In this document: piece after piece, positions 901-16,124 of the stretch | Layout of the letters: every line of letters begins with the position of its first letter | How positions within the stretch are numbered: position 1 is the first letter of the stretch | IMG/VR virus record: IMGVR_UViG_2718217897_000003 | Strand: one strand, 5' to 3' | Origin: a virus | Lineage: Duplodnaviria > Heunggongvirae > Uroviricota > Caudoviricetes | DNA: 16,591 nucleotides | Notes under the pieces: model-generated | What the model saw: the letters and a program-made list of their open reading frames with translations, nothing else | Databases searched by the model: none | What the model was told of the DNA's origin: nothing | Program-made: the position numbers and the translations under genes

Positions 901-1304
901 GATCGTATGTGCCTTTATGATTGGTCTGTAGATAGTGTAGAGCAGAAAAGAAAAGGTGGAGTCAGAACAGGATGAAAGTCGGAGGATAAAAGTCAGTTCA
1001 AGTATGGAGGATTCAGTGGTTACCACCAGGAGCTTGCAATGGGGACAGCGAATACTAACGGCAGCCACCGATAAATTTCAAAAAAGAGAATATACCTAAT
1101 ATTCAACTAAACGGTGGCATCTTCAATATAATATATTAAAGCCCTCATGGAGTTACCCGGAAGGGCCTCCATGTCCGTAATTCCTACTTATGTAGGAAAT
1201 GTTGTACAGAACATTTATTATAATCCTATTCAATTATAATAATCATGCCATTATTATATTTAAACACTAGAGAGTGTCGTTGGTATTTAATGGGGGAAGG
1301 TGAG

Positions 1305-1622: not shown

Positions 1623-1781
1623 GAATATTTTTTGGTAAGCGTCAAATATGCGCGTTCTGGCTGTGCGTAGCCGGAACCTGTGGGAGCACGATGCCGATAA
1701 GTGAAAGGCATCGTGCTATGAAGGAGGATTCTATCGATGTGGTCAATGGAAGACGGTTACCAGAGATAGGGCTTATGCATA

Positions 1782-1808
1782 AAAAAATAAGCCCGTGTAA
1801 GGGATATT
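1782..1808. other. Prophage attL core (P2-type att core; identical to the 3' terminator end of the cyaR sRNA gene)
   Basis: AAAAAATAAGCCCGTGTAAGGGA matches the P2 att core as I recall it and the reverse complement of the cyaR 3' end. Sequence to the right diverges from cyaR and leads into int, so this is the phage-derived duplicate, not a complete cyaR. Confidence 0.7.
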
Positions 1809-1887
1809 TAGGGTGTCACCAGTAGGGGCTTTCAACGGTACAATGCGGGTTTGAGCGGCATAAATTACCACTGAAAGCCCTTAAACG

Positions 1888-2901: not shown

Positions 2902-3016
2902 CAGAAAACCCTCCGAGTGGTACTTTTTTTTGCTACTACTAATCGCTTTTTTCGTGGTGGCTGAAATTTAGCCACCAATAGTAGGCACTTGTGATGAATA
3001 TATTCACGATAAATTG

Positions 3017-3316
3017 TTAACCAGTCTTTTGACCGGAGTGGGGCGACGTTGTTTCGTTTTGCCCAAAGTGTGCGAGAGCGGGCGCAATTTGCCCGGCTTC
3101 TGGAGCTACCTGATCAGTCATGAACCACAAAGTATATTTAGTAAATCTAGGATGTTGTAAGACCTTCATTATGGCTTCAACTCCAGCGTTTTTTGACCGG
3201 CTCTCATAGCTCGAAAGTGAGCTGTAGGCTACACCAGTTAATTCACTGAATTCTTTACGGTTTAACCTTTCAGATTCACGGATTAGCTTCAACTTCTCCG
3301 AAACGTCTATTGACAT
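3017..3316 (-). CDS. C: Immunity repressor, P2 C-like (99 aa)
   Basis: Protein MSIDVSEKLKLIRESERLNRKEFSELTGVAYSSLSSYE ... FTKYTLWFMTDQVAPEAGQIAPALAHFGQNETTSPHSGQKTG. The C-terminal half resembles P2 repressor C as I recall it, and the N-terminal half is helix-turn-helix-like. It is divergent from cox, as in the P2 switch. The ORF-track start at 3388 is an upstream extension. Confidence 0.85.
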   Translation of the reverse strand: MSIDVSEKLKLIRESERLNRKEFSELTGVAYSSLSSYESRSKNAGVEAIMKVLQHPRFTKYTLWFMTDQVAPEAGQIAPALAHFGQNETTSPHSGQKTG

Positions 3317-3393
3317 AATTACTCCGATTGCGTAATTTCTTGCTGATAGTGTGAAATGTTGTGCTTCTGGAGTTATCCTTTTAGGCAATAATT

Positions 3394-3412
3394 AGCCATT
3401 AGGAGCCATTAG
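3394..3412. promoter_or_regulatory. Candidate repressor operator: tandem direct repeat AGCCATTAG x2 with 10-bp period in the C/cox divergent promoter region
   Basis: AGCCATTAG occurs at 3394-3402 and 3404-3412, between the divergent C and cox starts. P2-type repressors bind direct-repeat operators; the assignment is by position and repeat structure only. Confidence 0.4.
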
Positions 3413-3437
3413 AAGCACTAAGGGAGAATCGTAGCAG

Positions 3438-3713
3438 ATGAATAGACAGCTTGTAAGCGTGACTGATGCCGTGCCTTATCAGGAGTTTGCAAAACTCATT
3501 GGTAAAACTCCAAGAGCTGTAAGGGGCATGATTGAGAAAGGGAAATTACCAGTTATTGAGATTACTGACCCTCAGTCAGTATCGGGGCGTGCTGGTGAAT
3601 ATTGGGTATACCTTCCGGCATGGAATAACGGACTAAAACTGGCTTATGAAAGCCGTCCTAAAGAGATTCGTGACGGCTGGTTGATGTGGTTAGGTCTCGG
3701 TGAACCACGTTAA
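3438..3713 (+). CDS. cox: Cox (early-operon repressor/excisionase, 91 aa)
   Basis: Protein ... PYQEFAKLIGKTPRAVRGMIEKGKLPVIEITDPQSVSGRAGEYWVYLPAWNNGLKLAYESRPKEIRDGWLMWLGLGEPR closely matches P2 Cox as I recall it. First gene of the rightward early operon. Confidence 0.9.
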   Translation: MNRQLVSVTDAVPYQEFAKLIGKTPRAVRGMIEKGKLPVIEITDPQSVSGRAGEYWVYLPAWNNGLKLAYESRPKEIRDGWLMWLGLGEPR

Positions 3714-3723
3714 GGAGAACCGT

Positions 3724-3894
3724 ATGAATGAGCCTCGTTGTATTGCTCAGTTATTGCGTAACGAAAGCCCTAGGGCGATTGACTTCACCATCACCCACGG
3801 TAAGGGGCGTAAGGGAATCATTATCCGCACCAAAAAACAGAGTCCGTTAAAAAAGGCTCTGACCTTTCTGAAAAGCCGGAGGGTCTGGAAATGA
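3724..3894 (+). CDS. Small early protein, P2 orf78 position (56 aa)
   Basis: ATG at 3724 with GGAG 9 nt upstream; stop overlaps the B start (ATGA at 3891-3894). Called by position in the P2 early operon. Confidence 0.55.
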   Translation: MNEPRCIAQLLRNESPRAIDFTITHGKGRKGIIIRTKKQSPLKKALTFLKSRRVWK

Positions 3895-4391
3895 CAGTGA
3901 TGACGCTCAATCTCGTTGAAAAACAGCCAGCAGCTATGCGCCGGATAATTGGTAAGCATCTGGCCGTCCCTCGCTGGCAGGAGACATGCGATTATTATAA
4001 TCAGATGATGGAACGCGAACGGCTAACGGTTTGCTTCCATGCGCAGTTAAAACAGCGTCACGCAACGATGCGTTTTGAAGAAATGAACGACGTCGAACGT
4101 GAACGGCTGGTTTGTGCAATTGATGAATTGCGTGGGGCATTCTCAAAACGCCGTCAGGTTGGCGCAAGTGAGTATGCATATATTAGTTTTTTAACAGTCA
4201 GTCAGCGTCGTACTTTATTTATGCATGCCGGATTGACTGAAAAAGAATTCAACCAGCCATACTGGCGAATTAATGAAGAATCATGTTACTGGCGTGATGC
4301 TTTATTCCGTGCATTACGTGAATTATTCAGCCTGTTTGAGTATGCACCGACAATTCTGACGTCGGTAAAACCAGAGCAATATCTGCATTAA
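3891..4391 (+). CDS. B: Replication protein B (helicase-loader-like, 166 aa)
   Basis: 166-aa product MTVMTLNLVEKQPAAMRRIIGKHLAVPRWQETCDYYNQMMERERL..., matching P2 gpB in size, position and, as I recall it, sequence. Confidence 0.88.
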   Translation: MTVMTLNLVEKQPAAMRRIIGKHLAVPRWQETCDYYNQMMERERLTVCFHAQLKQRHATMRFEEMNDVERERLVCAIDELRGAFSKRRQVGASEYAYISFLTVSQRRTLFMHAGLTEKEFNQPYWRINEESCYWRDALFRALRELFSLFEYAPTILTSVKPEQYLH

Positions 4392-4454
4392 ATAATTAAC
4401 CAGAGTTTTTAATGCACTTAATCGTGCGGGGCTTCTTTTTGCCTGGAGAAAGTC

Positions 4455-4679
4455 ATGCATACAGTTTCTGAAAACAAGTGCGGTAAATACGCATTACTGC
4501 TGCAACAGGCCAGAGCCGAAGCACATGCCGACGCAGCGACACGCTTTTCTTCTCATCTTGACGCCATGATTCGCCATATCACAAAGGCGGAGTTATCCCG
4601 CGTGGAGATAGTCGAGCTGCTCAGTCAGGAGTCGGAAAAATTTCACAATATCGGATTGTCTCGCGGGGAGGTGCTTTGA
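4455..4679 (+). CDS. Hypothetical early protein, P2 orf80 position (74 aa)
   Basis: ATG at 4455; stop overlaps the next start (TGATG). Conserved position between B and A. Confidence 0.6.
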
Positions 4680-4978
4680 TGTCCTGTTCTCATTCAGTTG
4701 TATTACTGAATAACGCCTTAAAAATCGCCGTTATGAAAAATGGCGATTTGTCTCTTATTCAACTTTGCCTTGATAAAGAAAAACGCGACATAACTGAATC
4801 TGTTATCGCGATTTATCAGAATGAATTAAACCTCCTGTCTGATGTGGTCAATTTACTTGTTAAACGCGCTGTATTCCACAAGCAAATTTCCTCAGTGGAT
4901 GAACTGACAAAATTAACGACAGAACTTGCCAGTTATTGCGCTGATGTATCCAGGAAACTTAACGATAAAAGGAGCTGA
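4679..4978 (+). CDS. Hypothetical early protein, P2 orf81 position (99 aa)
   Basis: ATG at 4679 overlaps the upstream stop; the ORF-track start at 4676 is a TTG one codon earlier. AAAAGGAG near its 3' end serves the next gene. Confidence 0.6.
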   Translation: MSCSHSVVLLNNALKIAVMKNGDLSLIQLCLDKEKRDITESVIAIYQNELNLLSDVVNLLVKRAVFHKQISSVDELTKLTTELASYCADVSRKLNDKRS

Positions 4979-4980
4979 TA

Positions 4981-5205
4981 ATGCCGGACAACGTAGATTT
5001 TATTCAGGAACAACAGGCTGAATTACTGGAGCGCCAGATTAACGCGGCAAGGGTAAAACATTGCGGTGCTTCTGCGCTGGTTTGCGAAGAGTGTAACGCG
5101 CCAATACCTGCTGCCCGTCGTGCGGCTTACCCGTCAGCCACGCGTTGTGTTTCCTGTCAGTCAGTCTTTGAAGCAAAAAACAAACATTACCGGAGAACGG
5201 CATGA
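4981..5205 (+). CDS. DksA/TraR-type C4 zinc-finger protein, P2 orf82 position (74 aa)
   Basis: AAAGGAG precedes the ATG at 4981. Four cysteines in CxxC ... CxxC arrangement (HCGASALVCEECNAPIPAARRAAYPSATRCVSCQ). Confidence 0.75.
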   Translation: MPDNVDFIQEQQAELLERQINAARVKHCGASALVCEECNAPIPAARRAAYPSATRCVSCQSVFEAKNKHYRRTA

Positions 5206-5477
5206 GTATTCGTATTGAAATTGGCGAACGTTATGTCGTTACCAGTGACAGCTTTCAGTTTATTCTCCACGAGAAAAAGAGAGCGGAAAGCGGTAAAAAC
5301 GCCGGTCAGGAATGGCTGGCGGTGGTTGGTTATTACCCGAAATTAAGCCAGCTCGTTTCCGGCCTGATGCATCACGATATTCTTACCGGAAGCGCAAAGT
5401 CTTTTGCTGATTTAAACGCGCAGGTTGAGCAACTCAGCAAGCGTTGTTCAGAGGCTTTTGGCTCATATGGCCGTTAA
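5202..5477 (+). CDS. Hypothetical early protein, P2 orf83 position (91 aa)
   Basis: ATGA overlap with the orf82 stop; its 3' end overlaps the A start by 11 nt. Confidence 0.7.
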   Translation: MSIRIEIGERYVVTSDSFQFILHEKKRAESGKNAGQEWLAVVGYYPKLSQLVSGLMHHDILTGSAKSFADLNAQVEQLSKRCSEAFGSYGR

Positions 5478-7749
5478 AGCCTCCGGGCGTTTTGTCCCTC
5501 CGTCAGCATTTGCCGCAGGCACCGGTAAGACGTTTACCGGTGCTTATGCATGGAACGCGCCACGCGAGGCCGTCGGGCGCGAAAGACCCCTTACACGTGA
5601 CGAGATGCGTCAGGTGCAAGGTGTTTTATCCACGATTAACCGCCTGCCTTACTTTTTGCGCTCGCTGTTTACTTCACACTATGACTACATCCGGCGCAAT
5701 AAAAGCCCGGTGCACGGGTTTTATTTCCTCACATCCACTTTTCAGCGTCGTTTATGGCCGCGCATTGAGCGTGTGAATCAGCGCCATGAAATGAACACCG
5801 ACGCGTCGTTGCTGTTTCTGGCAGAGCGTGACCACTATGCGCGCCTGCCGGGAATGAATGACAAGGAGCTGAAAAAGTTTGCCGCCCGTATCTCATCGCA
5901 GCTTTTCATGATGTATGAGGAACTCAGCGATGCCTGGGTGGATGCACATGGCGAAAAAGAATCGCTGTTTACGGATGAGGCGCAGGCTCACCTCTATGGT
6001 CATGTTGCTGGCGCTGCACGTGCTTTCAATATTTCCCCGCTTTACTGGAAAAAATACCGTAAAGGACAGATGACCACGAGGCAGGCATATTCTGCCATTG
6101 CCCGTCTGTTTAACGATGAGTGGTGGACTCATCAGCTCAAAGGCCAGCGTATGCGCTGGCATGAGGCGTTACTGATTGCTGTCGGGGAGGTCAATAAAGA
6201 CCGTTCTCCTTATGCCAGTAAACATGCCATTCGTGATGTGCGTGCACGCCGCCAGGCAAATCTGGAATTTCTTAAATCGTGTGATCTCGAAAACAGGGAA
6301 ACCGGCGAGCGCATCGACCTTATCAGTAAGGTGATGGGCAGTATTTCTAATCCTGAAATTCGCCGGATGGAGCTGATGAACACCATTGCCGGTATTGAGC
6401 GTTACGCCGCAGCAGAGGGTGATGTGGGGATGTTTATCACGCTGACCGCGCCGTCAAAGTATCACCCGACACGTCAGGTTGGAAAAGGCGAAAGTAAAAC
6501 CGTCCAGCTAAATCACGGCTGGAACGATGAGGCATTTAATCCAAAGGATGCGCAGCGTTATCTCTGCCGTATCTGGAGCCTGATGCGCACGGCATTCAAG
6601 GATAATGATTTACAGGTCTACGGTTTGCGTGTCGTCGAGCCACATCACGACGGAACGCCGCACTGGCATATGATGCTTTTTTGTAATCCGCGCCAGCGTA
6701 ACCAGATTATCGAAATCATGCGTCGCTATGCGCTCAAAGAGGATGGCGACGAAAGAGGAGCCGCGCGAAACCGTTTTCAGGCAAAACACCTTAATCGGGG
6801 CGGTGCTGCGGGGTATATCGCGAAATACATCTCAAAAAACATCGACGGCTATGCACTGGATGGTCAGCTCGATAACGATACCGGCAGACCTCTGAAAGAT
6901 ACTGCCGCGGCTGTTACTGCATGGGCGTCAACGTGGCGCATCCCGCAATTTAAAACGGTTGGTCTGCCGACAATGGGGGCTTACCGTGAACTACGCAAAT
7001 TGCCTCGCGGCGTCAGCATTGCTGATGAGTTTGACGAACGCGTCGAGGCTGCACGCGCTGCCGCAGACAGTGGCGATTTTGCGTTGTATATCAGTGCGCA
7101 GGGTGGGGCAAATGTTCCGCGCGATTGCCAGACTGTCAGAGTCGCCCGTAGCCCGTCGGATGAAGTTAACGAGTACGAGGAAGAAGTCGAGAGAGTGGTC
7201 GGCATTTACGCGCCGCATCTCGGCGCGCGTCATATTCATATCACCAGAACGACGGACTGGCGCATTGTGCCGAAAGTTCCGGTCGTGGAGCCTTTGACTT
7301 TAAAAAGCGGCATCGCCGCGCCTCGGAGTCCTGTCAATAACTGTGGAAAGCTCACCGGTGGTGATACTTCGTTATCGGCTCCCACACCGACTGAGCATGC
7401 TGCAGCGGTGTTAAATTTTATAGATGAAGGGATTCTAAGTTGGACCGAGCCAGGCATTATGAAGGTACTTAGAGACTTATTGAGTAATGAACTGAAATGC
7501 AGTAATCGTTCACAGCAGAGCTTTACTCCTTTCAATGGTCGAAGCTACTTTCCTGCCCCATCCGCCCGGTTGACAAGGCAGGAGAGAAAGACTATCCCGA
7601 AAATTAAGGTTCTTCTTGCACAAAGTGACATTCAGGCTAGTTATTGGGAGCTTGAAGCTCTCGCTCGCGGAGCTGTTTTGGATTTTGGGCATAAGCGTTT
7701 TAAATTTGATACCGATATCGACTTTTTTGACAGACAGCGTGAGTGGTAG
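5467..7749 (+). CDS. A: Replication initiation protein A (rolling-circle initiator, 760 aa)
   Basis: Protein starts MAVKASGRFVPPSAFAAGTGKTFTGAYAWNAPREAVGRERPLTRDEMRQ at the ATG at 5467 and carries an HxH-like motif (TPHWHMMLF) and a tyrosine-rich GYIAKYISKN region typical of gpA-family initiators. The ORF-track start at 5425 is an extension. The last 110 codons or so are AT-richer than the rest. Confidence 0.92.
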   Translation: MAVKASGRFVPPSAFAAGTGKTFTGAYAWNAPREAVGRERPLTRDEMRQVQGVLSTINRLPYFLRSLFTSHYDYIRRNKSPVHGFYFLTSTFQRRLWPRIERVNQRHEMNTDASLLFLAERDHYARLPGMNDKELKKFAARISSQLFMMYEELSDAWVDAHGEKESLFTDEAQAHLYGHVAGAARAFNISPLYWKKYRKGQMTTRQAYSAIARLFNDEWWTHQLKGQRMRWHEALLIAVGEVNKDRSPYASKHAIRDVRARRQANLEFLKSCDLENRETGERIDLISKVMGSISNPEIRRMELMNTIAGIERYAAAEGDVGMFITLTAPSKYHPTRQVGKGESKTVQLNHGWNDEAFNPKDAQRYLCRIWSLMRTAFKDNDLQVYGLRVVEPHHDGTPHWHMMLFCNPRQRNQIIEIMRRYALKEDGDERGAARNRFQAKHLNRGGAAGYIAKYISKNIDGYALDGQLDNDTGRPLKDTAAAVTAWASTWRIPQFKTVGLPTMGAYRELRKLPRGVSIADEFDERVEAARAAADSGDFALYISAQGGANVPRDCQTVRVARSPSDEVNEYEEEVERVVGIYAPHLGARHIHITRTTDWRIVPKVPVVEPLTLKSGIAAPRSPVNNCGKLTGGDTSLSAPTPTEHAAAVLNFIDEGILSWTEPGIMKVLRDLLSNELKCSNRSQQSFTPFNGRSYFPAPSARLTRQERKTIPKIKVLLAQSDIQASYWELEALARGAVLDFGHKRFKFDTDIDFFDRQREW

Positions 7750-7784
7750 TTGAAAAAACGGTTGAACGGGGTAACAATATGTTA

Positions 7785-7814
7785 TTGTTGAGGAATTGTT
7801 TGTTATGGTTTAAT
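7785..7814 (+). promoter_or_regulatory. Candidate sigma70-like promoter for the cargo operon (-35 TTGTTG 7785-7790, -10 TTTAAT 7809-7814), overlapping a palindrome
   Basis: Hexamers with 18-bp spacing about 25 bp upstream of the 7838 ATG; palindrome AACAATA-tgt-TATTGTT at 7773-7789. Pattern match only. Confidence 0.3.
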
Positions 7815-7837
7815 TTTTATACACGGCAGAAAAGCAT

Positions 7838-9061
7838 ATGAGCATGGTTGAATGGATAAGCCACGAGAAAAAAGATAGCCTGATACTATTTGTACATGGA
7901 TTAAATGGTGGTTTGGAAACATGGAACTTTAATAAAGAAATTTCATTTCCAAAACTATTAGCAGAAGATGAAGATATTAGCAACGTATTTGATATTGCAT
8001 GTTTCAATTATTTTACTAAATTCACACAAACGTATGCTAAAACGTCAGGATTCTTGGCTCGTATTTTCTTTAAGAAAAATAAGTTAGAGAGAAATTTACC
8101 AACTGATGAAATAGCTGAGTTATTGTATACTGAGATTAGAGTAACACTAAGTGATTACTCTCGAATTATAATAATCGCCCATAGTATGGGGGGGTTAATA
8201 TCAAAAAATCTAATTCTAAAAAAAGTTGAGCATGAGGAACAATCTAATATAATTGGATTCATTTCGTTAGCAGTCCCTCACTTTGGTGCTAAATTAGCGA
8301 ATATAACTTCAATGGTATCTTCAAATGCTCAGTTAGTAGATCTTGGATTGTTAAGTGAAGCGACTGATACATTGAATAGGCGCTGGATAAATTGTAGCAA
8401 AAAACTTCCTATCACTAGATATGTTTATGGATCTCATGACACTATAGTCGATAAAAAAAGCGCATTACCGATGGATAGTGAACGACATAACTCAATTGCA
8501 GTTAATGAAGGGCATAGCTCAATTTGCAAGCCCGAAAATAGCTCGTCTACAGTGTTTGTTGCGGTAAAGCAATTTATTCAGCAGATAAATTTAGAAGCAC
8601 CCAAGAAGATTTGCGTTGAGCGTTTTTCTGATGATAAACAATATGATAATGAGTATTTCGTCTTAAAAATGATTGTCGCAGATATACATCAGGATATCGC
8701 TCTGCATGCAAAGGAATATTATTATAATGCTGAGCTTGCGAGAAATATTTTTACGAGTGATTACGATAGAAAACAACTTGGTCATTTGTATTCTAAAATA
8801 AGGGAGATTTACCAGGAAGAGTATGAGCAATACATTGCAAATTCAATTTCCCCAGATAAATTTATTGCTGCTGTTCATAGACGAATAACCCAGGAGGATA
8901 AGTCGTCGTTAGATTCTCTTATAAAAAGTTTGGAAACGATACATAAGAAAGGAATGTTGCATCAACTGGCTAACAAAAATGACAGGGATATTGTCTGGTC
9001 ATCTGAAACCAGCGTAGAAACTTTGGAGCAATTACGGCGAGGTAATCATGAAGAAAAATAA
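7838..9061 (+). CDS. Cargo protein 1: lipase-like alpha/beta serine hydrolase with C-terminal helical domain (407 aa), candidate defense effector
   Basis: AT-rich ORF. Oxyanion-hole-like HGLNGG (res 20-25), nucleophile elbow AHSMGG (Ser116, the pentapeptide of Bacillus lipase A), candidate acid Asp201 (YGSHDTIVD) and His226 (NEGHSSI), in the canonical order. The C-terminal 150 residues or so are helical and K/E-rich. The stop overlaps the next gene by 14 nt. Confidence 0.75.
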   Translation: MSMVEWISHEKKDSLILFVHGLNGGLETWNFNKEISFPKLLAEDEDISNVFDIACFNYFTKFTQTYAKTSGFLARIFFKKNKLERNLPTDEIAELLYTEIRVTLSDYSRIIIIAHSMGGLISKNLILKKVEHEEQSNIIGFISLAVPHFGAKLANITSMVSSNAQLVDLGLLSEATDTLNRRWINCSKKLPITRYVYGSHDTIVDKKSALPMDSERHNSIAVNEGHSSICKPENSSSTVFVAVKQFIQQINLEAPKKICVERFSDDKQYDNEYFVLKMIVADIHQDIALHAKEYYYNAELARNIFTSDYDRKQLGHLYSKIREIYQEEYEQYIANSISPDKFIAAVHRRITQEDKSSLDSLIKSLETIHKKGMLHQLANKNDRDIVWSSETSVETLEQLRRGNHEEK

Positions 9062-9560
9062 CTTGCCGTATATACCTCTTGATGAAGAGTATAGTTTGAA
9101 TTTTGCTATGCTTGCCATTGCTATATCTATATTATCTCATAGCAAAAAAGGAGTGTTGTCATTAGATATTAATAAAATACAAATTTTTATGTATCTGATA
9201 AAAAATCCATCAAAAATTGATTGTGCTCTTACAGTTTCGGGGAAAAAGCCTGCTTGTGTCGAGTCCCAGTTAACTTATACAATAAAGAGTTTTTCATCAA
9301 ATGTAGATATCTTATTCGACAATTCCAAAGTGAAATATCTTATAAAAATTATGTCATTGCGGGGATTGCTCTCAGCTGAGAAAAAAAATAATGAGAGTGT
9401 TAAATTATTTTTATCTGAAAAAGGTAAGGAATTTGCTAGCTCATTGACTGATGGATATTTTAAAGAAATAAAACGACTAGCCGAAGCATTGTTACCGCTA
9501 CAAGCATTGCCTACCTCTAAGTTAAACTCTGTTATAAACAAAGTCTTCAAGGAGAAATGA
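9048..9560 (+). CDS. Cargo protein 2: small 170-aa protein of unknown function, possible adaptor or kleisin-like middle component
   Basis: ATG at 9048 lies inside the 3' end of gene 1, and ATGA overlaps gene 3 at 9557-9560, indicating translational coupling in one operon. AT-rich; no motif recognised by eye. Confidence 0.7.
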   Translation: MKKNNLPYIPLDEEYSLNFAMLAIAISILSHSKKGVLSLDINKIQIFMYLIKNPSKIDCALTVSGKKPACVESQLTYTIKSFSSNVDILFDNSKVKYLIKIMSLRGLLSAEKKNNESVKLFLSEKGKEFASSLTDGYFKEIKRLAEALLPLQALPTSKLNSVINKVFKEK

Positions 9561-11527
9561 TGAAATCATATCTCAATATCAATAGTTTGATTCTTGTTGG
9601 CGTTCGTAAAAACTACGTCACTACTTTTTATAAAGGTCTCAATGTTATCTACGGAGACTCTGACACAGGTAAGTCAAGTATTCTGGAGTTTATTAATTAT
9701 CTTTTAGGTGCTAGTTCTATAGATTTAGCAGATGAAATAAAAACATCAGTAAACTATGCTGCTCTTGAAGTAGTGATCAATGATACTGTATTCACAATCG
9801 TAAGAGATATCTATGATCATAAAAAATCAATAGAAGTTTATCGTTGTAAGTTTGATGATTTACATAAACACTTTCCGAAAAAATACGCCCCTAATTATAG
9901 CCCCTTATCAAATGTTGATGGCGTTTTTTCGGAGTTTTTACTTGATAGTCTTAATTTTCCAAAAATTGAAATTAAGGTGTCTCCTTCTAAAGCACATTCA
10001 CAGATGCGCAGGTTAAGCTTTAGAAATATATATAAATTTGTTTATGTAAGTCAGGATGATATTGGTAGTAAATCATTCTTACGATTGGAGGATTGGTCCC
10101 GTTACGCATTTACGAAAGAAGTTTTTAAATACATGTTCAATGTGTTGGATGAAAGCATCGCCAGACTCCAAGGTGAAATATCTGCAAAAAGTAGTTTAGT
10201 AACGGAACTAAATAAGAAGTATCAGATAATATCTGAATTTCTTCGCGATACAGACTATGAAACAATTGAATCAATTGATGATGAGATTAATAGGATAGAT
10301 CTTATTTTAGAAGAACTTGTTGCAGGTTTGTCTGCTCTCGATAAAAATATGAAAGCGGATTCCATGCAGTATACAGAATTGAAAGATGCCCACAATTTTA
10401 TTTCGCTTAAATACAAGGAGTGCATATTAAATATTAGCACGCTTGAGGATAAGATTGATAAATATTCGCGGTTAAAAAATGACTATGATAATGATATTGA
10501 AAAACTCAAAGCGATTAAAACAGCAAATTCTCGCATTGGTGTATTGGATAAGGAAGTATTTTCCTGTCCGATCTGTGATAGCCACATTAAAATAGATGAT
10601 TCCGATTTTCCATTTGAAATTTCATCAGAAAAAGATCTTAATGAAGAGTTGAATTCACTTAGTCGACGTAGACGAAATATTAATGACATGATCTCAGAAA
10701 TGTCATTTAAATTAAAAAAAGAATCTGGTTATAAAAAAGAATTAGATGAACAACTTGACGAGTTGAGAGAGTTAATTGACGAAGAAAGCCAGTCAATGAT
10801 TACACCATTCTTGACTCAGAGAGATTTTTATATTAAAGAGATATCAAAAAACGAGAAGGTTAGGGAGCAGTTAGTAAAAGATTTGAAGGTTAGAAACCAG
10901 CAAGAGGAACTGCTTGAAAAGCATCAGGTACTGATAAAAGATATTGAAACATTAACTGAACGCTTGGATGCGTTAAAGAAAAACGCACCTAGTATGGAAG
11001 GCATTTTACAAGGTTTAGGTGATAGATTTAGTCAGTATTTGAAGGGTATTAATATCAAAAACAGAACGGGGATAAAAATCTCTGAAAGATATTACACCCC
11101 TGTTATAAGAGGAAAGGAATATTTTAAAATAACGTCCGGAGGTTTGAGAACTATTTCTTCTATTGGGTATCTTTTGTCTATTCTTGATTATGCAATAGAC
11201 CATAATGTTAACCATCCTTTACTTTTGATATTTGATACGGTTGGTAAATATTTAGGGAAACAGACCAAGGAAAAATACTCAAAAGAAACTCTTGCAGTCG
11301 AGGATGACCTTGAGGGGATGTCAGACCCGATGAAGTATCAAAATATTTATGAGCAACTATTGAATACAGTTCAAAAAGCAGAAAGAAAAAATGTTCCGTG
11401 CCAGATTATATTAGTTGATAATGATTTGCCTAATTCGTTTTCTACTGGTGAACTTTCGAATATTATCGCTCATTATAGCTCGGTTGGTGAGGATGGTTTG
11501 CCTTTAGGTTTAATTGATGACCTTTAA
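9557..11527 (+). CDS. Cargo protein 3: SMC/Rad50/SbcC-like ABC ATPase with coiled coil and CxxC hook (656 aa)
   Basis: N-terminal Walker A GDSDTGKSS (K39), Q-loop-like VSQDD (Q166), a charged heptad-rich segment of about 350 residues with a single CPIC (C337/C340) near its middle, signature-like TSGG (526-529) and Walker B-like LLLIFD (555-560). Confidence 0.8.
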   Translation: MMKSYLNINSLILVGVRKNYVTTFYKGLNVIYGDSDTGKSSILEFINYLLGASSIDLADEIKTSVNYAALEVVINDTVFTIVRDIYDHKKSIEVYRCKFDDLHKHFPKKYAPNYSPLSNVDGVFSEFLLDSLNFPKIEIKVSPSKAHSQMRRLSFRNIYKFVYVSQDDIGSKSFLRLEDWSRYAFTKEVFKYMFNVLDESIARLQGEISAKSSLVTELNKKYQIISEFLRDTDYETIESIDDEINRIDLILEELVAGLSALDKNMKADSMQYTELKDAHNFISLKYKECILNISTLEDKIDKYSRLKNDYDNDIEKLKAIKTANSRIGVLDKEVFSCPICDSHIKIDDSDFPFEISSEKDLNEELNSLSRRRRNINDMISEMSFKLKKESGYKKELDEQLDELRELIDEESQSMITPFLTQRDFYIKEISKNEKVREQLVKDLKVRNQQEELLEKHQVLIKDIETLTERLDALKKNAPSMEGILQGLGDRFSQYLKGINIKNRTGIKISERYYTPVIRGKEYFKITSGGLRTISSIGYLLSILDYAIDHNVNHPLLLIFDTVGKYLGKQTKEKYSKETLAVEDDLEGMSDPMKYQNIYEQLLNTVQKAERKNVPCQIILVDNDLPNSFSTGELSNIIAHYSSVGEDGLPLGLIDDL

Positions 11528-11655
11528 TACTATACATGCATTTTTTTGAATTAGATTGCATGTGGATAATGAGTCTATTTAGTGAAGGGAAGGTTTTGTG
11601 TGACGTGACTTTCGATAAAATTCAACCGCATTAAAACCGCCCCATGAAGCGGGCG

Positions 11656-11674
11656 GGCGAGGCGGGGAAAGCAC
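11656..11674. other. cos site (19-nt cohesive-end sequence GGCGAGGCGGGGAAAGCAC) with flanking G/T-rich repeats
   Basis: The 19-mer matches the P2 cohesive end as I recall it, lying between the end of the rightward operon and the 3' end of Q, where cos sits in a P2 prophage. G/T-rich reiterated motifs follow at about 11700-11815. Confidence 0.65.
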
Positions 11675-11815
11675 TGCGCGCTGGCGGTGGTGCTGATTTT
11701 ATTTTTTAGCGTCTCAGCGCGTCGTGATGGCGTTTAGATTGTGCGCCGGGGCGTTGGTGTGTCTGCGGGGTGTTTTGTGCGGTGGTGAGCGTGTGAGGGC
11801 GTGATGACGGGGTGT

Positions 11816-11837
11816 AAAAAAGCCGCCCGCAGGCGGC
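11816..11837 (-). terminator. Rho-independent terminator downstream of Q (minus strand)
   Basis: GCCGCC-cgca-GGCGGC hairpin at 11822-11837, preceded on the plus strand by AAAAAA (a U-run on the minus strand after the stem), immediately 3' of the Q stop at 11843-11845. Confidence 0.55.
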
Positions 11838-11842
11838 GATGT

Positions 11843-12814
11843 TCAGCCGTTGTCAGTGTCCAGTGAGTAGTTTTTAAAGCGGATGACCTCCTGACCGAGC
11901 CAGCCGTTTATCTCACGGATCCTGTCCTGTAACGGGATAAGCTCATTGCGGACAAAGACCTTTGCCACTTTCTCAATATCACCCAGCGACCCGACGTTCT
12001 CCGGCTTGCCGCCCATCAACTGAAAGGGGATGCGGTGCGCGTCCAGCAGGTCTGCGGCACTGGCTTTTTTGATATTAAAAAAATCGTCCTTCGTCGCCAC
12101 TTCACTGAGCGGGATAATTTTAATGCCGTCGGCTTTTCCCTGTGGGGCATAGAGAAACAGGTTTTTAAAGTTGTTGCGGCCTTTCGACTTCACCATGTTT
12201 TCGCGAAGCATTTCGATATCGTTGCGATCCTGCACGGCATCAGTGACGTACATGATGTATCCGGCATGTGCGCCGTTTTCGTAATACTTGCGGCGGAACA
12301 GCGTGGCCGACTCATTCAGCCAGGCAGAGTTAAGGGCGCTGAGATATTCCGGCAGGCCGTACAGCTCCTGATTAATATCGGGCTCCAGCAGGTGAAACAC
12401 GGAACCGGGCGCGAAGGCTGTCGGTTCGTTGAAGGACGGCACCCACCAGTAAACATCCTCCTCCACGCCACGGCGGGTATATTTTGCCGGTGAGGTTTCC
12501 AGTCTGATGACCTTACCGGTGGTGCTGTAACGCTTTTCCAGAAACGCATTACCGAACACCAGAAAATCCAGCACAAAGCGGCTGAAATCCTGCTGGGAAA
12601 GCCACGGGTGCGGGATAAACGTTGAAGCCAGAATATTACGTTTGACGTAAATCGGTGAGCTGTGATGCACGGCAGCACGCAGACTTTTTGCCAGACCGGT
12701 AAAGCTGACCGGTGGCTCATACCATCTGCCGTTACTGATGCATTCGACGTAATCCAGAATGTCACGGCGGTCGAGTACCGGCACTGGCTCACCATGCTGA
12801 AAAATCAGCTTCAT
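11843..12814 (-). CDS. Q: Portal protein Q (323 aa as encoded here; 5' end abuts a deletion junction, possibly N-terminally truncated)
   Basis: Minus-strand ORF with host-like GC content in the expected place and orientation next to cos. From memory P2 Q is about 344 aa, so about 20 codons may be missing. Sequence directly upstream of its ATG is lysB-derived rather than gene P. Confidence 0.8.
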   Translation of the reverse strand: MKLIFQHGEPVPVLDRRDILDYVECISNGRWYEPPVSFTGLAKSLRAAVHHSSPIYVKRNILASTFIPHPWLSQQDFSRFVLDFLVFGNAFLEKRYSTTGKVIRLETSPAKYTRRGVEEDVYWWVPSFNEPTAFAPGSVFHLLEPDINQELYGLPEYLSALNSAWLNESATLFRRKYYENGAHAGYIMYVTDAVQDRNDIEMLRENMVKSKGRNNFKNLFLYAPQGKADGIKIIPLSEVATKDDFFNIKKASAADLLDAHRIPFQLMGGKPENVGSLGDIEKVAKVFVRNELIPLQDRIREINGWLGQEVIRFKNYSLDTDNG

Positions 12815-13075
12815 GTTGCGCTCACCAGGGCAGACAAAAACGAGCTGGCGCAGGTGGCACTGCGTCAGGAACTGGAAAACGCCGCGAAGCGTGAAGCTCA
12901 GCGCGAGAAAACCATCACGAGATTACTCAATGAAAACGAAGATTTCCGCCGCTGGTATGGCGCTGACCTGCCTGATGCTGTGCGCCGGTTGCACCAGCGC
13001 CCCGCCTGCACCGACGCCAGTGATTGTCCACAACGCCTGCCCGAAAGTGAGTCTTTGCCCGATGCCGGGCAGTGA
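12815..13075 (+). pseudogene. lysB: lysB remnant (Rz-like spanin, 3' portion only)
   Basis: The frame ending at 13075 encodes ...ALTRADKNELAQVALRQELENAAKREAQREKTITRLLNENEDFRRWYGADLPDAVRRLHQRPACTDASDCPQRLPESESLPDAGQ, but upstream of about 12815 the same frame is antisense to Q. There is no lysB start or N-terminal transmembrane region. The 5' boundary is approximate (plus or minus 30 nt). Confidence 0.6.
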
Positions 13076-13220
13076 CCCGCAGACGAACGGCGATTTAAGT
13101 GCCGATATCCGGCAGCTTGAGAACGCGCTGGCACGCTGTGCCAGCCAGGTAAAAATGATTAAACACTGTCAGGACGAAAACGATGCTCAAACCCGACAGC
13201 CTGCGCAGGGCGCTGACTGA
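12930..13220 (+). CDS. lysC: LysC (Rz1-like outer-membrane lipoprotein spanin, 96 aa), embedded in the lysB frame region
   Basis: MKTKISAAGMALTCLMLCAGCTS has a signal peptide and lipobox Cys; the rest is proline-rich. Embedded out of frame in lysB as in P2. Likely non-functional without full LysB. Confidence 0.7.
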   Translation: MKTKISAAGMALTCLMLCAGCTSAPPAPTPVIVHNACPKVSLCPMPGSDPQTNGDLSADIRQLENALARCASQVKMIKHCQDENDAQTRQPAQGAD

Positions 13221-13650
13221 TGCCGTCACGGTGCTGAAAACTAACCCCGATATGCTTCGGATATTCGTGGATAACGGGAGTATTGCCTCCACACTGGCGA
13301 CGTCGCTGTCATTCGAAAAGCGTTACACGCTCAATGTCATTGTGACCGATTTTACCGGTGATTTTGACCTGCTCATCGTGCCGGTGCTGGCGTGGCTGCG
13401 GGAAAATCAGCCCGACATCATGACCACCGACGAAGGCCAGAAAAAAGGCTTCACGTTTTATGCAGACATCAACAATGACAGCAGCTTTGATATCAGTATC
13501 AGCCTGATGCTGACCGAACGCACGCTGGTCAGTGAGGTGGGCGGCGCGCTGCATGTGAAGAATATCCCGGAACCCCCGCCGCCGGAGCCGGTCACCCGCC
13601 CGATGGAGCTTTATATCAATGGCGAACTGGTGAGTAAGTGGGATGAATGA
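13183..13650 (+). CDS. R: Tail completion protein R (155 aa)
   Basis: MLKPDSLRRALTDAVTVLKTNPDMLRIFVDNGS... matches P2 gpR in sequence as I recall it, and in size and position. Confidence 0.9.
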   Translation: MLKPDSLRRALTDAVTVLKTNPDMLRIFVDNGSIASTLATSLSFEKRYTLNVIVTDFTGDFDLLIVPVLAWLRENQPDIMTTDEGQKKGFTFYADINNDSSFDISISLMLTERTLVSEVGGALHVKNIPEPPPPEPVTRPMELYINGELVSKWDE

Positions 13651-14095
13651 GTTTAAGCGTTTTGAAGACCGGCTGACCGGGCTGATTGAATCGCTGTCAC
13701 CGTCAGGGCGTCGGCGACTGAGCGCCGAACTGGCGAAACGTCTGCGTCAGAGTCAGCAGCGTCGGGTGATGGCACAGAAAGCCCCGGACGGCACCCCCTA
13801 CGCGCCACGTCAGCAGCAGAGCGCCAGAAAAAAGACCGGTCGCGTTAAGCGAAAAATGTTTGCGAAACTTATTACCAGTCGTTTTTTGCATATCCGCGCC
13901 AGCCCGGAACAGGCATCAATGGAATTTTACGGCGGGAAGTCGCCGAAAATCGCCAGTGTGCATCAGTTCGGTCTGTCGGAAGAAACCCGGAAAGACGGTA
14001 AGAAAATTGATTATCCGGCGCGTCCTCTGCTCGGCTTTACCGGTGAGGATGTGCAGATGATTGAAGAGATTATCCTGGCTCACCTTGAGCGTTAG
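13643..14095 (+). CDS. S: Tail completion protein S (150 aa)
   Basis: MNEFKRFEDRLTGLIESLSPSGRRRLSAELAKRLRQSQQRRV... matches P2 gpS as I recall it; start overlaps the R stop. Confidence 0.9.
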   Translation: MNEFKRFEDRLTGLIESLSPSGRRRLSAELAKRLRQSQQRRVMAQKAPDGTPYAPRQQQSARKKTGRVKRKMFAKLITSRFLHIRASPEQASMEFYGGKSPKIASVHQFGLSEETRKDGKKIDYPARPLLGFTGEDVQMIEEIILAHLER

Positions 14096-14125
14096 TTTTA
14101 TCCAGGCAGAGGCTGATGCGCAATT

Positions 14126-14160
14126 AAACATTGAGCGGCCATGCTGGTCGCTCAATGTTT
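14126..14160. terminator. Perfect 12-bp-stem hairpin between convergent S and the membrane-protein gene; candidate bidirectional terminator
   Basis: AAACATTGAGCG-(11 nt loop)-CGCTCAATGTTT, 30 nt after the S stop and just before the minus-strand gene's stop. Only a short U-run (the stem's own TTT). Confidence 0.45.
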
Positions 14161-14166
14161 AGAGGC

Positions 14167-14952
14167 TTATGAGTGATTTTTATTTGATGCTTTGTATTCT
14201 ACAACCTTCTTATTGGCGTAAAGGAATTTTGTATATGACAGGAATATAACCAGACCTGAAATGAAATAGATGAGGGATATTATTAATAATGCTTTTTTTT
14301 GGCTGTTATTATCTTTAATTTCCTGACTTAACCATTCCGAGTCCTCCTCGTTTAGCTGTAAGAGCTTATTGCAGGCGATCTCAGGAAGTGTGTCTTTTAT
14401 AAATATGTTTCGTAGCCTCTTGCAATCGGCAAGGCTATAAGTTTTATTGAATTCAACTGTTTTATTGTTGAAGGATAAAAGAACTTTGTCACTATAAACA
14501 TAGTACATCATATTTTTATATGGTATGCCTATGGCATCTCTTACTATAGCGGATTGTTTGTTGTGTATATAACATGCGAAGAGAATATAAATAATGCTGG
14601 ACAGAATTACAATTATTGTTTTAATTATGTGTGGTGGTTTTGTTATGTCACCCCAGAAGCGAGTAAGAAAAAAATACGATGTTTTTAGTTTTCCATCAAT
14701 CAGCCCCTGCTGTATCATTCTCACATCTTCGATGCCTGATACATTGATTCCGTTAATTATTTTAAATAGTTGAATGTCGCGCCATTTTTTGTCGAGCATT
14801 TTTAACTTTCTGTCTGAATACTCAAAATTGAAATGATGTGCAATAAACCTCATAAGATTACTTTTACCAAAGGTAATAAATGTTAATGCTATTAATAAAA
14901 ATAGATACAAAGAGATAAACCACCACGCATTAGTCACATTATCACTGAACAT
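14167..14952 (-). CDS. AT-rich cargo gene: 261-aa integral membrane protein (about 3 predicted TM helices), unknown function, in the S-V slot (P2 orf30 position)
   Basis: ATG complement at 14950-14952 with GAGGAG 8 nt upstream on the minus strand. Hydrophobic segments WWFISLYLFLLIALTFITF, IIVILSSIIYILFACYI and ALLIISLIYFISGLVIFLSY. Opposite strand to the flanking tail genes. Confidence 0.8.
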   Translation of the reverse strand: MFSDNVTNAWWFISLYLFLLIALTFITFGKSNLMRFIAHHFNFEYSDRKLKMLDKKWRDIQLFKIINGINVSGIEDVRMIQQGLIDGKLKTSYFFLTRFWGDITKPPHIIKTIIVILSSIIYILFACYIHNKQSAIVRDAIGIPYKNMMYYVYSDKVLLSFNNKTVEFNKTYSLADCKRLRNIFIKDTLPEIACNKLLQLNEEDSEWLSQEIKDNNSQKKALLIISLIYFISGLVIFLSYTKFLYANKKVVEYKASNKNHS

Positions 14953-15035
14953 TACGCTCTCCTCGAATGTTGTATGGTCGTTCTACAAATGAATCCAGAT
15001 AGCATAACTTTTATATATTGTGCAATCTCACACGC

Positions 15036-15671
15036 ATGAACACTCTCGCAAATATTCAGGAACTCGCGCGCGCACTGCGCAACATGATTCGTACCGGCCT
15101 TGTCGTCGAAACCAACCTTAAAGCCGGTCGCTGCCGTGTGCAGACCGGTGGCATGTGCACTGACTGGCTTCAGTGGCTGACCCATCGTGCCGGACGTTCG
15201 CGCACATGGTGGGCACCTTCCGTGGGGGAACAGGTGCTGATTCTGGCTGTGGGCGGTGAACTCGACACGGCGTTCGTTCTGCCGGGGATTTATTCCGGCG
15301 ATAACCCCGCGCCGTCTGCGTCGGCGGATGCCCTGCATATCCGTTTCCCTGACGGGGCGGTGATTGAGTATGAACCCGAAACCAGTGCACTCACGGTAAG
15401 CGGAATTAAAACGGCCAGCGTGACGGCTTCTGATTCTGTTACTGCCACGGTGCCGGTGGTCATGGTGAAAGCATCAACCCGCGTCACCCTGGACACACCG
15501 GAGGTGGTTTGCACCAACAGGCTGATTACCGGCACGCTGGAAGTGCAGAAGGGCGGGACGATGCGCGGCAACATTGAACACACCGGCGGTGAACTCTCAT
15601 CAAACGGTAAGGTACTGCATACCCATAAACACCCCGGCGACAGCGGCGGCACAACCGGGAGCCCTCTATGA
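15036..15671 (+). CDS. V: Baseplate spike protein V (211 aa)
   Basis: MNTLANIQELARALRNMIRTGLVVETNLKAGRCRVQTGG... matches P2 gpV as I recall it. The ORF-track start at 15018 is a TTG extension; ATG at 15036. Confidence 0.92.
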   Translation: MNTLANIQELARALRNMIRTGLVVETNLKAGRCRVQTGGMCTDWLQWLTHRAGRSRTWWAPSVGEQVLILAVGGELDTAFVLPGIYSGDNPAPSASADALHIRFPDGAVIEYEPETSALTVSGIKTASVTASDSVTATVPVVMVKASTRVTLDTPEVVCTNRLITGTLEVQKGGTMRGNIEHTGGELSSNGKVLHTHKHPGDSGGTTGSPL

Positions 15672-16015
15672 CAGCGCGTTATCTCGGAATGAATTGCAGT
15701 GATGGCCTGACTGTCACTGACCTTGAGCATATCAGCCAGAGTATCGGCGATATCCTGCGCACACCGGTCGGCTCGCGGGTGATGCGTCGTGATTACGGCT
15801 CGTTGCTGGCGTCAATGATTGACCAGCCGCAGACCCCGGCGCTTGAGTTGCAGATTAAGGTCGCCTGTTACATGGCGGTGCTGAAATGGGAACCCCGCGT
15901 CACCCTGTCATCCGTCACCACTGAGCGCAGTTTTGACGGGCGAATGACGGTCACCTTAACCGGCCAGCACAACGACACCGGCCAGCCACTTTCGTTAACC
16001 ATCCCTGTGAGTTGA
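15668..16015 (+). CDS. W: Baseplate wedge protein W (gp25-like, 115 aa)
   Basis: MTARYLGMNCSDGLTVTDLEHISQSIGDILRTPVGSRVMRRDYGS... matches P2 gpW as I recall it; ATGA overlap with the V stop. Confidence 0.92.
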   Translation: MTARYLGMNCSDGLTVTDLEHISQSIGDILRTPVGSRVMRRDYGSLLASMIDQPQTPALELQIKVACYMAVLKWEPRVTLSSVTTERSFDGRMTVTLTGQHNDTGQPLSLTIPVS

Positions 16016-16019
16016 AACC

Positions 16020-16124
16020 ATGCCGATTATCGACCTGAACCAGCTACCCGCACCGGATGTGGTCGAGGAGCTGGACTTTGAAACCATTCTCGCCGAACGC
16101 AAGGCGACACTGATTTCCCTTTAC
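16020..16124 (+). pseudogene. J: Baseplate protein J, 5' fragment (first 35 codons only)
   Basis: MPIIDLNQLPAPDVVEELDFETILAERKATLISLY matches the gpJ N-terminus as I recall it. The frame then reads TPKTRNRKSRR and stops, and downstream sequence belongs to another gene in another frame. Confidence 0.75.

What the first reader, a model, noticed from the sequence alone, without database searches (positions are those of the whole stretch)
14167..14952. Second cargo island: opposite-strand AT-rich membrane protein inserted between tail genes S and V
This single gene has its own strong RBS and a composition unlike the surrounding tail genes. It sits in the S-V slot where P2 carries the nonessential orf30 moron. 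Small membrane proteins at such prophage positions often mediate superinfection exclusion or abortive infection, but it has no recognisable enzymatic motif and its function is open.
Basis: partly seen in the sequence, partly recalled or inferred. Interest (0 to 1): 0.7.

Follow-up and report, generated by a model that had tools for sequence, protein, structure and literature searches.

The report
Phage P2 orf30 membrane gene
This is the long-known but never explained gene orf30 of phage P2, an AT-rich add-on encoding a three-pass inner-membrane protein; it sits here in a decayed P2-type prophage of an E. coli B-like strain, and its function remains untested.

Summary
Window 14167-14952 (-) is an intact 261-aa ORF at 32% GC, set between ~56% GC tail genes S and V. 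It has a GAGGAG ribosome site and three predicted membrane helices. It is not a different cargo in the orf30 slot; it is orf30 itself. It is 84% identical to P2 Orf30 and has the same length, slot and orientation. The protein is identical in E. coli B REL606.

It is optional: 463 of 5,426 complete E. coli genomes carry it, and most P2-like prophages have an empty slot. It is under purifying selection, with dN/dS of 0.24-0.34 in the soluble parts.

New here: Orf30 belongs to a very divergent family (~20% identity; hhalign 99.4%). In most related loci examined the family keeps the same antisense S-V position, always at 29-36% GC. All 26 members show a charge pattern and a conserved cysteine pair that fit an N-out topology, with a cytoplasmic helical domain and a periplasmic beta domain.

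No Pfam, PADLOC, PDB or viral-structure match gives a function. My best guess, unproven (~0.35), is a prophage-expressed envelope protein that blocks incoming phage. The gene is already known, so interest is moderate.

The parts
14167..14952 (-). orf30 ortholog: 261-aa predicted three-pass inner-membrane protein, 32% GC
   Evidence: ORF. 84% aa identity to P2 Orf30 and 99.6% to P24A7b. phrog_2407 at E 1.8e-143. TM segments. AF2 pLDDT 86.6. dN/dS 0.46.
14959..14964 (-). Shine-Dalgarno GAGGAG, 6 nt before the ATG
   Evidence: Read directly from the sequence. P2 has AAGGAG at the same place.
14124..14162 (.). Hairpin between the convergent S and orf30 genes, likely a two-way terminator (18-bp stem)
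   Evidence: RNA fold gives -34.3 kcal/mol, z -5.1, on the + strand and -24.3 kcal/mol, z -3.0, on the - strand. P2 annotates a putative rho-independent terminator of the O operon in the same S-orf30 spacer.
14967..14994 (+). Late-activator (Ogr) binding site of the pV late promoter. It fills most of the 83-bp orf30-V spacer.
   Evidence: Placed by position from the P2 annotation (activator site 10239-10266). The spacer is 95% identical to P2. An ACACAACA-like half-site recurs in the V-to-homologue spacers of distant relatives.
13643..14095 (+). gpS tail completion gene, left flank of the slot
   Evidence: 99% aa identity to P2 gpS. Annotated as virion morphogenesis protein in RefSeq relatives.
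15036..15671 (+). gpV baseplate spike gene, right flank of the slot
   Evidence: 97% aa identity to P2 gpV. RefSeq annotation in relatives.

Best explanation
The feature is the orf30 gene of a P2-type (Peduovirus) prophage.

Shown:
- It is an optional, AT-rich, horizontally acquired single-gene insert between tail genes S and V.
- It is read antisense to the late tail operons.
- It is bounded downstream by a strong hairpin shared with gene S.
- It encodes a protein under purifying selection.

Predicted: a three-pass inner-membrane protein. The N-terminus lies in the periplasm. A ~78-aa helical domain in the cytoplasm carries the most conserved motif, D-x-Q-L-F-[KR]-x3-G-[IV]-N-V-x4-D-A. An ~85-aa beta-rich domain in the periplasm carries a conserved cysteine pair. 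A short basic tail lies in the cytoplasm. The membrane helices seem to act mainly as anchors.

Inferred mechanism:
- Its orientation means the Ogr-driven late operons cannot co-transcribe it, so it is most likely made from the resident prophage. At this AT content, H-NS may damp its expression.
- It most likely acts at the envelope as a lysogenic-conversion factor.
- The specific guess is superinfection exclusion: its periplasmic and cytoplasmic domains interfere with genome delivery by incoming phages across the inner membrane, as HK97 gp15, T4 Imm and P22 SieA do.
For: Identity:
- 84% identity to P2 Orf30, same slot and orientation.
- full-length match to phrog_2407.
- spacer 95% identical to P2.

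Optional and acquired:
- 1582 genomes hold S-V, but only 459-463 hold orf30. Most of the rest have a 66-bp empty slot.
- 32% GC against ~56% in the flanks.

Functional protein:
- dN/dS is 0.46 overall and 0.24-0.34 in the loops and tail. It is 0.65-1.9 in the TM helices.
- All sampled genome copies span 786 bp and are annotated as intact.

Family and synteny:
- The profile search finds 44 clusters.
- hhalign between the orf30 group and a distant subgroup gives 99.4%, E 2.4e-21, at 19% identity.
- 19 of 22 viral-contig homologs, L010 and P0042 lie between V and S on the opposite strand. Gene GC is 0.29-0.36 whatever the flank GC, which ranges 0.42-0.62.

Topology, across all 26 family members:
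- The N-terminus has essentially no K/R.
- Loop 1 has net charge +4.9 and almost no Cys.
- Loop 2 has net charge 0 and exactly 2 Cys.
- The tail has net charge +1.9.
- The AF2 model (pLDDT 86.6, pTM 0.75) has a matching secondary-structure layout.

Independence from the lytic cycle:
- The gene is intact in decayed prophages: this window, REL606, L040 and L031.
- It occurs as a solitary islet in Enterobacter chromosomes.

Context: other cargo in the same slot includes HigBA, lipoproteins, an HNH-like protein and another membrane protein. From my own knowledge, membrane morons inside tail operons such as HK97 gp15 act as exclusion proteins.
Against: - No sigma-70 promoter was found upstream, and the spacer is filled by the pV promoter and Ogr site. 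When the gene is expressed is therefore unknown, and expression in the lysogen is assumed.
- Retention in decayed prophages is weak evidence, because V and W are retained next to it too.
- Most P2-like prophages do without it.
- Two large surveys of P2 defence hotspots I could search do not mention orf30.
Confidence: 0.4

Rival explanations
1. Abortive-infection effector. Orf30 stays silent or inactive in the membrane. When its cytoplasmic domain senses infection, it collapses membrane integrity or the proton motive force and kills the cell before the phage matures.
For: It is a single-gene membrane protein with a conserved cytoplasmic domain. It is AT-rich and so probably tightly repressed. 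It shares the prophage with a Lamassu system. HigBA toxin-antitoxin modules sit in the same slot elsewhere.
Against: Among close alleles the TM helices are the least constrained part (dN/dS 0.65-1.9). TM3 is almost free of charged residues across the family. That is not what a pore or channel would show. No PADLOC model matches. A conserved periplasmic disulfide domain has no obvious role in a suicide effector.
Confidence: 0.15
2. A host-physiology or competition factor unrelated to phage. Examples are an envelope stress or permeability modifier, or immunity against a colicin, CDI or T6SS membrane toxin, carried by the prophage for the benefit of the lysogen.
For: Solitary copies sit in Enterobacter chromosomes outside any prophage. 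Neighbouring slot cargo includes an LprI-like lipoprotein and a DUF7480 lipoprotein next to an HExxH protein, which looks like envelope or toxin-immunity cargo. From my own knowledge, small multi-pass inner-membrane proteins are typical immunity proteins for pore-forming toxins.
Against: In E. coli and P2 the slot holds orf30 alone, with no toxin gene beside it. In most related loci examined the family stays in one position of one phage lineage. That points to a role connected with phage biology.
Confidence: 0.2
3. An accessory of P2's own lytic cycle, for example tuning lysis timing, blocking re-adsorption or re-injection into a lysing cell, or assisting tail or baseplate assembly at the membrane.
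For: Its position is fixed beside the spike gene V and it shares the pV/Ogr regulatory spacer in most related loci examined.
Against: P2 annotates it as nonessential. It is absent from most P2-like prophages and from W-phi and L-413C (PMC2771037). It is antisense to the late operons. It is kept intact where the structural genes are deleted, and in non-phage islets.
Confidence: 0.1
4. Functionless passenger DNA. The ORF persists only through linkage to the prophage.
For: No function is known and no promoter was recognised.
Against: Soluble regions are under purifying selection, with dN/dS 0.24-0.34. ORF length is invariant across alleles with DNA identity as low as ~87%. Motifs and the cysteine pair are conserved at ~20% identity.
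Confidence: 0.03

Closest known systems
Bacteriophage P2 Orf30 (AAD03281.1; phrog_2407)
   Same: 84% aa identity. Identical length of 261 aa. Same slot between S and V and same antisense orientation. Spacer to V 95% identical. A strong hairpin in the S-orf30 spacer, where P2 annotates its terminator.
   Different: Only allelic differences, concentrated in the TM helices. This copy sits in a decayed, non-inducible prophage remnant that also carries Lamassu.
Pfam DUF6216 (PF19723), an uncharacterised family
   Same: 9 of 26 Orf30-family members give weak matches, best E 8.7e-7. Two of the five matches inspected run along most of the 270-position model.
   Different: The window protein gives no hit. 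The matches I inspected individually are below the 27.3-bit cutoff. DUF6216 has no known function, so the link explains nothing.
HK97 gp15 moron (from my own knowledge, not tested here)
   Same: A small inner-membrane protein encoded by an insert within tail genes of a temperate phage. It is expressed from the prophage and blocks DNA entry. Its genomic logic is the closest parallel.
   Different: No sequence or fold similarity was detected. The number of TM helices and the size differ. Expression and phenotype of Orf30 are unknown.
T4 Imm and P22 SieA superinfection exclusion proteins (from my own knowledge)
   Same: Phage-encoded inner-membrane proteins acting on genome delivery.
   Different: Orf30 matches no annotated PHROG family, and it has a larger architecture with domains on both sides of the membrane.

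Membership tests
P2 Orf30 / phrog_2407 | Full-length sequence similarity to P2 Orf30 | tested here: met
   tblastn gives 84% identity over 261/261 aa, E 4e-123. phrog_2407 matches 1-261 of 261 at E 1.8e-143.
P2 Orf30 / phrog_2407 | Located between gpS and gpV, antisense to them | tested here: met
   The same holds for distant family members.
Moron (Hendrix-type autonomous insert in a late operon) | Base composition unlike the flanks, and present or absent among close relatives | tested here: met
   32% GC against ~56%. 459-463 of 1582 S-V-bearing E. coli genomes carry it, and the empty slot is 66 bp.
Moron (Hendrix-type autonomous insert in a late operon) | Own terminator | tested here: met
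   Hairpin at 14124-14162, z -5.1 and -3.0 on the two strands. P2 annotates a terminator in the same spacer.
Moron (Hendrix-type autonomous insert in a late operon) | Own promoter active in the lysogen | tested here: inconclusive
   No sigma-70 consensus site upstream. The spacer is occupied by pV and the Ogr site. Needs RNA-seq or 5' mapping.
Pfam DUF6216 (PF19723) | Score at or above the gathering cutoff of 27.3 bits | tested here: not met
   No hit for the window protein at E <= 1. 9 of 26 relatives hit weakly, and the five inspected individually score 12-17 bits.
Known anti-phage defence systems (PADLOC-DB 2.0) | Match to any defence-protein model | tested here: not met
   0 families at E <= 0.1. 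In the same call the neighbouring Lamassu genes matched strongly.
Superinfection exclusion proteins (HK97 gp15, P22 SieA, T4 Imm) | Sequence or fold similarity to a characterised exclusion protein | tested here: not met
Superinfection exclusion proteins (HK97 gp15, P22 SieA, T4 Imm) | Inner-membrane location | tested here: inconclusive
   Three hydrophobic helices, a family-wide positive-inside pattern and a paired Cys in loop 2 support it. This is prediction only.
Superinfection exclusion proteins (HK97 gp15, P22 SieA, T4 Imm) | Expressed from the prophage and blocks phage DNA entry | not testable with these tools
   Needs transcript mapping, plating assays and DNA-entry assays.

The most novel reading that the evidence does not exclude
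The Orf30 family is an unrecognised, position-locked immunity module of P2-like phages. On this reading it is a two-sided inner-membrane protein that blocks genome delivery by rival contractile-tailed phages. It diversifies in an arms race to ~20% identity while the neighbouring spike gene stays at 65-85%. It is kept AT-rich so that H-NS can gate its expression. That would make the S-V slot a third functional defence locus of P2 and would define a new exclusion protein family.
Probability: 0.25. Interest if true: 0.65.

Novelty: already known. Interest (0 to 1): 0.38.

Why it matters
orf30 is one of the last P2 genes without a function. Its slot is the least studied of the three classic variable regions of P2-like phages; the other two have yielded many defence systems.

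The gene is in about 8.5% of complete E. coli genomes, and an identical protein is encoded in E. coli B REL606. A knockout or a plasmid test would therefore be cheap.

The family-level picture found here gives concrete handles for such tests:
- a locked position in the S-V slot;
- extreme divergence between members;
- constant AT-richness;
- a conserved cytoplasmic motif and a conserved periplasmic cysteine pair.

If the gene proves to be an exclusion or defence protein, it adds a new single-gene membrane family. If not, the slot is simply a moron site of mixed content.

Tried and rejected
- Pfam, NCBIfam and PADLOC scans of the protein gave only noise: DUF6535 at 19.8 bits, which covers just the first hydrophobic helix, and an antiporter-subunit match at E 0.012.
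- A profile search of PDB sequences gave only TM-helix noise, E 0.07.
- The first AF2 model, built from 6 sequences, was mediocre (pLDDT 74). The second, from 26 sequences, was good (pLDDT 86.6).
- Foldseek against BFVD found nothing at E <= 0.001. The AFDB library was not available.
- The word-indexed homolog search found only 5-7 clusters. The exhaustive profile search was needed to reveal the wider family.
With closer sequences it returned only three Enterobacter loci.
- There is no match in plasmids and no Rfam family anywhere in the window.
- A divergent Ogr-activated promoter for orf30 is unlikely. The site centre is only ~28 bp from the ATG, so a start point ~55 bp away would fall inside the ORF.
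- Literature: no paper I could search or read gives orf30 a function. The Christie and Calendar P2 review and the H-NS preprint could not be opened.

Full report
What is in the window

The window is a P2-type prophage next to yegS and yegR. It runs from the integrase, repressor C, cox, B and the replication gene A to an AT-rich three-gene block, then fragments of the late region.

Window 1-12601 and 13934-16124 are 100% identical to E. coli B REL606. Against an intact prophage at the same chromosomal site (NZ_CP098197, L002), the window has two internal deletions. One joins the portal gene to lysB at about 12789-12794. The other joins J to D at about 16121-16124. REL606 carries a different but nested set of deletions. 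None of 5,426 complete E. coli genomes has exactly this arrangement.

Checking the observation

The ORF at 14167-14952 (-) is exactly as described.
- It is 261 aa with an ATG start, and GAGGAG lies 6 nt upstream.
- It is 32% GC, with 0.33 in sliding windows, against 0.55-0.60 in the flanks.
- Three hydrophobic segments lie at about 9-29, 108-130 and 221-241.
- Downstream, an 18-bp-stem hairpin at 14124-14162 folds far better than shuffled sequence on both strands, with z -5.1 and -3.0. P2 annotates a terminator in the same spacer.
- The flanking genes are gpS and gpV, 97-99% identical to those of P2.

Identity

tblastn against 50,697 phage records finds 21 records, all Peduovirus or P2-like.
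- Peduovirus P24A7b is 99.6% identical.
- P2 itself is 84.3% identical over all 261 residues. There the gene is annotated 'orf30: Orf30, nonessential', lying between S and V on the opposite strand.
- The 83-bp spacer between orf30 and V is 95% identical to that of P2. The P2 annotations of the Ogr binding site and the pV promoter therefore carry over.
- The protein matches phrog_2407 (unknown function) end to end at E 1.8e-143.

So this is orf30 itself, not another gene in the orf30 slot. Published descriptions agree. [quoted passage not shown] The orf30 site is named as one of three regions where P2-like phages carry horizontally acquired genes (PMC3091744). Phage R18C has a different 741-bp ORF there (PMC6823313). 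Two large surveys of P2 defence hotspots do not mention orf30.

Optional but functional

Of 5,426 complete E. coli genomes, 1582 contain the S-V region. Only 459-463 contain orf30, always on the chromosome. Most of the rest have S and V 66 bp apart. A few carry unrelated AT-rich cargo: a 247-aa soluble protein, or a 246-aa HNH-like protein.

Eight alleles all keep 786 bp.
- orf30 has dN 0.070, dS 0.152 and dN/dS 0.46.
- R, S, V and W have dN/dS 0.06-0.13.

By region, the two loops and the tail are constrained (0.24-0.34). The three membrane helices vary freely (0.65-1.9). This fits a protein whose soluble domains do the work and whose helices act mainly as anchors.

A wider family

The word-indexed search found only five clusters. 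An exhaustive profile search of 1.84 billion representatives found 44 clusters, about 25 of them full length at 250-270 aa and 17-32% identical.
- hhalign between the orf30 group and one distant subgroup gives 99.4% probability, E 2.4e-21, at 19% identity.
- A distant member finds P2 Orf30 by tblastn at 1e-7 to 4e-11.
- Nine of the 26 aligned members touch Pfam DUF6216 weakly. The window protein does not.

The synteny is the notable result.
- P0042 lies between V and S, antisense, in a different P2-like prophage.
- Of 22 homolog loci recovered from viral contigs, 19 have the gene between V and S on the opposite strand. So does one Enterobacter metagenome locus, L010.
- Gene GC is 0.29-0.36 whether the flanks are 0.42 or 0.62 GC.
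- V stays 65-85% identical to the E. coli P2 or 186-type V query, while the membrane protein falls to about 20%.
- Most of the V-to-homologue spacers I examined in these distant loci carry an ACACAACA-like late-activator half-site.

There are exceptions. One copy lies next to an integrase (L032). One sits at the edge of a remnant (L031). Two Enterobacter chromosomes (L011, L012) each carry a solitary copy in a ~1.4-kb AT-rich islet between an ECF-sigma-like gene and a chemoreceptor gene. The gene is also intact inside decayed remnants L040 and L031.

Architecture

Across all 26 aligned members:
- the short N-terminus has essentially no Lys or Arg;
- loop 1 has net charge +4.9 and almost no Cys;
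- loop 2 has net charge 0 and exactly two Cys in every sequence (C194 invariant; C177 in 23 of 26, with a nearby Cys in the other three);
- the tail has net charge +1.9.

By the positive-inside rule, and because paired cysteines usually mean a disulfide in the periplasm, the N-terminus faces out, loop 1 is cytoplasmic, loop 2 is periplasmic and the C-terminus faces in.

With the 26-sequence alignment, AF2 gives pLDDT 86.6 and pTM 0.75.
- TM1 lies within helix 3-40.
- Loop 1 forms helices 48-67, 74-86 and 91-94.
- TM2 lies within helix 109-134.
- Loop 2 has four strands between 141 and 173, then helices 174-180 and 189-198.
- TM3 lies within the last helix, 202-260.

The most conserved sequence is in loop 1: D-x-Q-L-F-[KR]-x3-G-[IV]-N-V-x4-D-A, with G68 and G87 invariant.

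No function by homology

- PADLOC gave 0 hits, while the neighbouring genes in the same call hit LmuA, LmuC and LmuB at 1e-108, 3e-52 and 1e-233.
- Pfam and NCBIfam gave only noise.
- A profile search of PDB sequences gave only TM noise.
- BFVD gave nothing at E <= 0.001.

Expression

The scan found no sigma-70 consensus promoter on the orf30 strand between the ATG and 15400. The spacer is occupied by the pV promoter and its Ogr site, whose centre is about 28 bp from the orf30 ATG. Ogr therefore cannot drive orf30 divergently from the usual -55 position. The orf30 promoter must overlap pV or lie inside V.

Because the gene is antisense, the late operons cannot transcribe it. I infer that it is expressed independently of late transcription, plausibly in the lysogen. 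From general knowledge of AT-rich foreign DNA in E. coli, H-NS plausibly modulates it.

One lead I could not read: bioRxiv 10.64898/2026.09.05.749240, 'H-NS silences antiviral immunity through 3D chromatin compaction'. It contains 'DUF6216' once, 'transmembrane' once, 'P2-like' 4 times, 'Lamassu' 3 times and 'BL21' 29 times. It may concern this very locus. I make no claim about its content.

Mechanism

Shown: the gene's identity, its optional and acquired nature, purifying selection, the family and its synteny.

Predicted: the topology and fold.

Inferred: the function. The best-supported reading is a lysogenic-conversion protein acting at the envelope, most likely superinfection exclusion at the stage of genome delivery.

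Arguments for:
- It has domains on both faces of the inner membrane.
- It is independent of the lytic programme.
- It persists in dead prophages and in non-phage islets.
- It diverges fast while its neighbours stay conserved.
- Its slot elsewhere carries HigBA, lipoproteins, an HNH-like protein and another membrane protein.

Arguments against:
- There is no phenotype, no expression data and no homology to any known exclusion or defence protein.
- Most P2-like phages lack the gene.

I put about 0.35-0.4 on this reading. The rivals are a host-physiology or toxin-immunity factor (0.2), an abortive-infection effector (0.15), a lytic-cycle accessory (0.1) and functionless DNA (0.03).

Verdict

The finding is real and correctly described, but it is the known P2 orf30. 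Novelty class: already known, with function open. The family-level observations made here add modest new value and make an old open question easy to test in E. coli B REL606. Interest 0.38.

Noticed in passing
window 7838-11527 (+): The first AT-rich island is a complete Lamassu defence system, LmuA (407 aa), LmuC (170 aa) and LmuB (656 aa). PADLOC E-values are 1e-108, 3e-52 and 1e-233. It sits in the classic gpA-portal hotspot of P2.
   Followed up: partly
window ~12789-12794 and ~16121-16124: The prophage is defective. Compared with an intact relative (L002), the portal gene is fused to lysB and J is fused to the 3' end of D, with 6-bp and 4-bp overlaps at the junctions. REL606 has nested but different deletions: it lacks window 12602-13933 and keeps 8.3 kb that the window lacks. 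No complete E. coli genome of 5,426 has the window's exact arrangement.
   Followed up: partly
L005 867-1610; L007 671-1411; L006 671-1400: Other E. coli P2-like prophages fill the S-V slot with unrelated AT-rich genes (32-36% GC). One is a 247-aa soluble protein with no family match. Another is a 246-aa protein with weak HNH/endonuclease I matches, which is split in two in L006.
   Followed up: partly
L038 5269-5936 and the homologous genes in L039; L039 4300-4932; L029 2423-3357; L035 2026-4818: In P2-like phages of other hosts the slot also carries a HigB/HigA toxin-antitoxin pair with an ORF6N protein. Elsewhere it carries an HExxH-motif protein with a DUF7480 lipoprotein, or an LprI-like lipoprotein. 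In L035 an apparent transposase ORF (IS30-like by eye; not scanned against any family library) splits the orf30-like gene.
   Followed up: partly
L010 4945-5766 (-); L033 4519-5313 (-): A second uncharacterised protein family of 264-273 aa has hydrophobic N-terminal segments followed by a long, mostly polar region. The two copies are 27% identical (E 2e-29). It lies convergent with the orf30-like gene in two loci and could be a partner or simply another cargo gene.
   Followed up: no
L011 3962-4753; L012 4001-4789: Solitary orf30-like genes (36-37% identical to the window protein) form ~1.4-kb islets of 36% GC in 56-65% GC Enterobacter chromosomes. In L011 the neighbours are an ECF-sigma-like gene and a chemoreceptor gene, and neither locus shows the phage tail genes R, S, V or W within the 4-kb flanks.
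   Followed up: partly
window 14200-14720, both strands: There are 8 promoter-like hexamer pairs in 13900-15400 against 3.9 expected, and all fall inside the AT-rich ORF. This is typical of AT-rich foreign DNA with spurious internal promoters, and such DNA is usually bound by H-NS.
   Followed up: no
bioRxiv 10.64898/2026.09.05.749240: A preprint on H-NS silencing of immunity loci contains the terms DUF6216, transmembrane, P2-like, Lamassu and BL21. It may already describe this E. coli B locus. It is listed by the search tool but could not be opened.
   Followed up: partly
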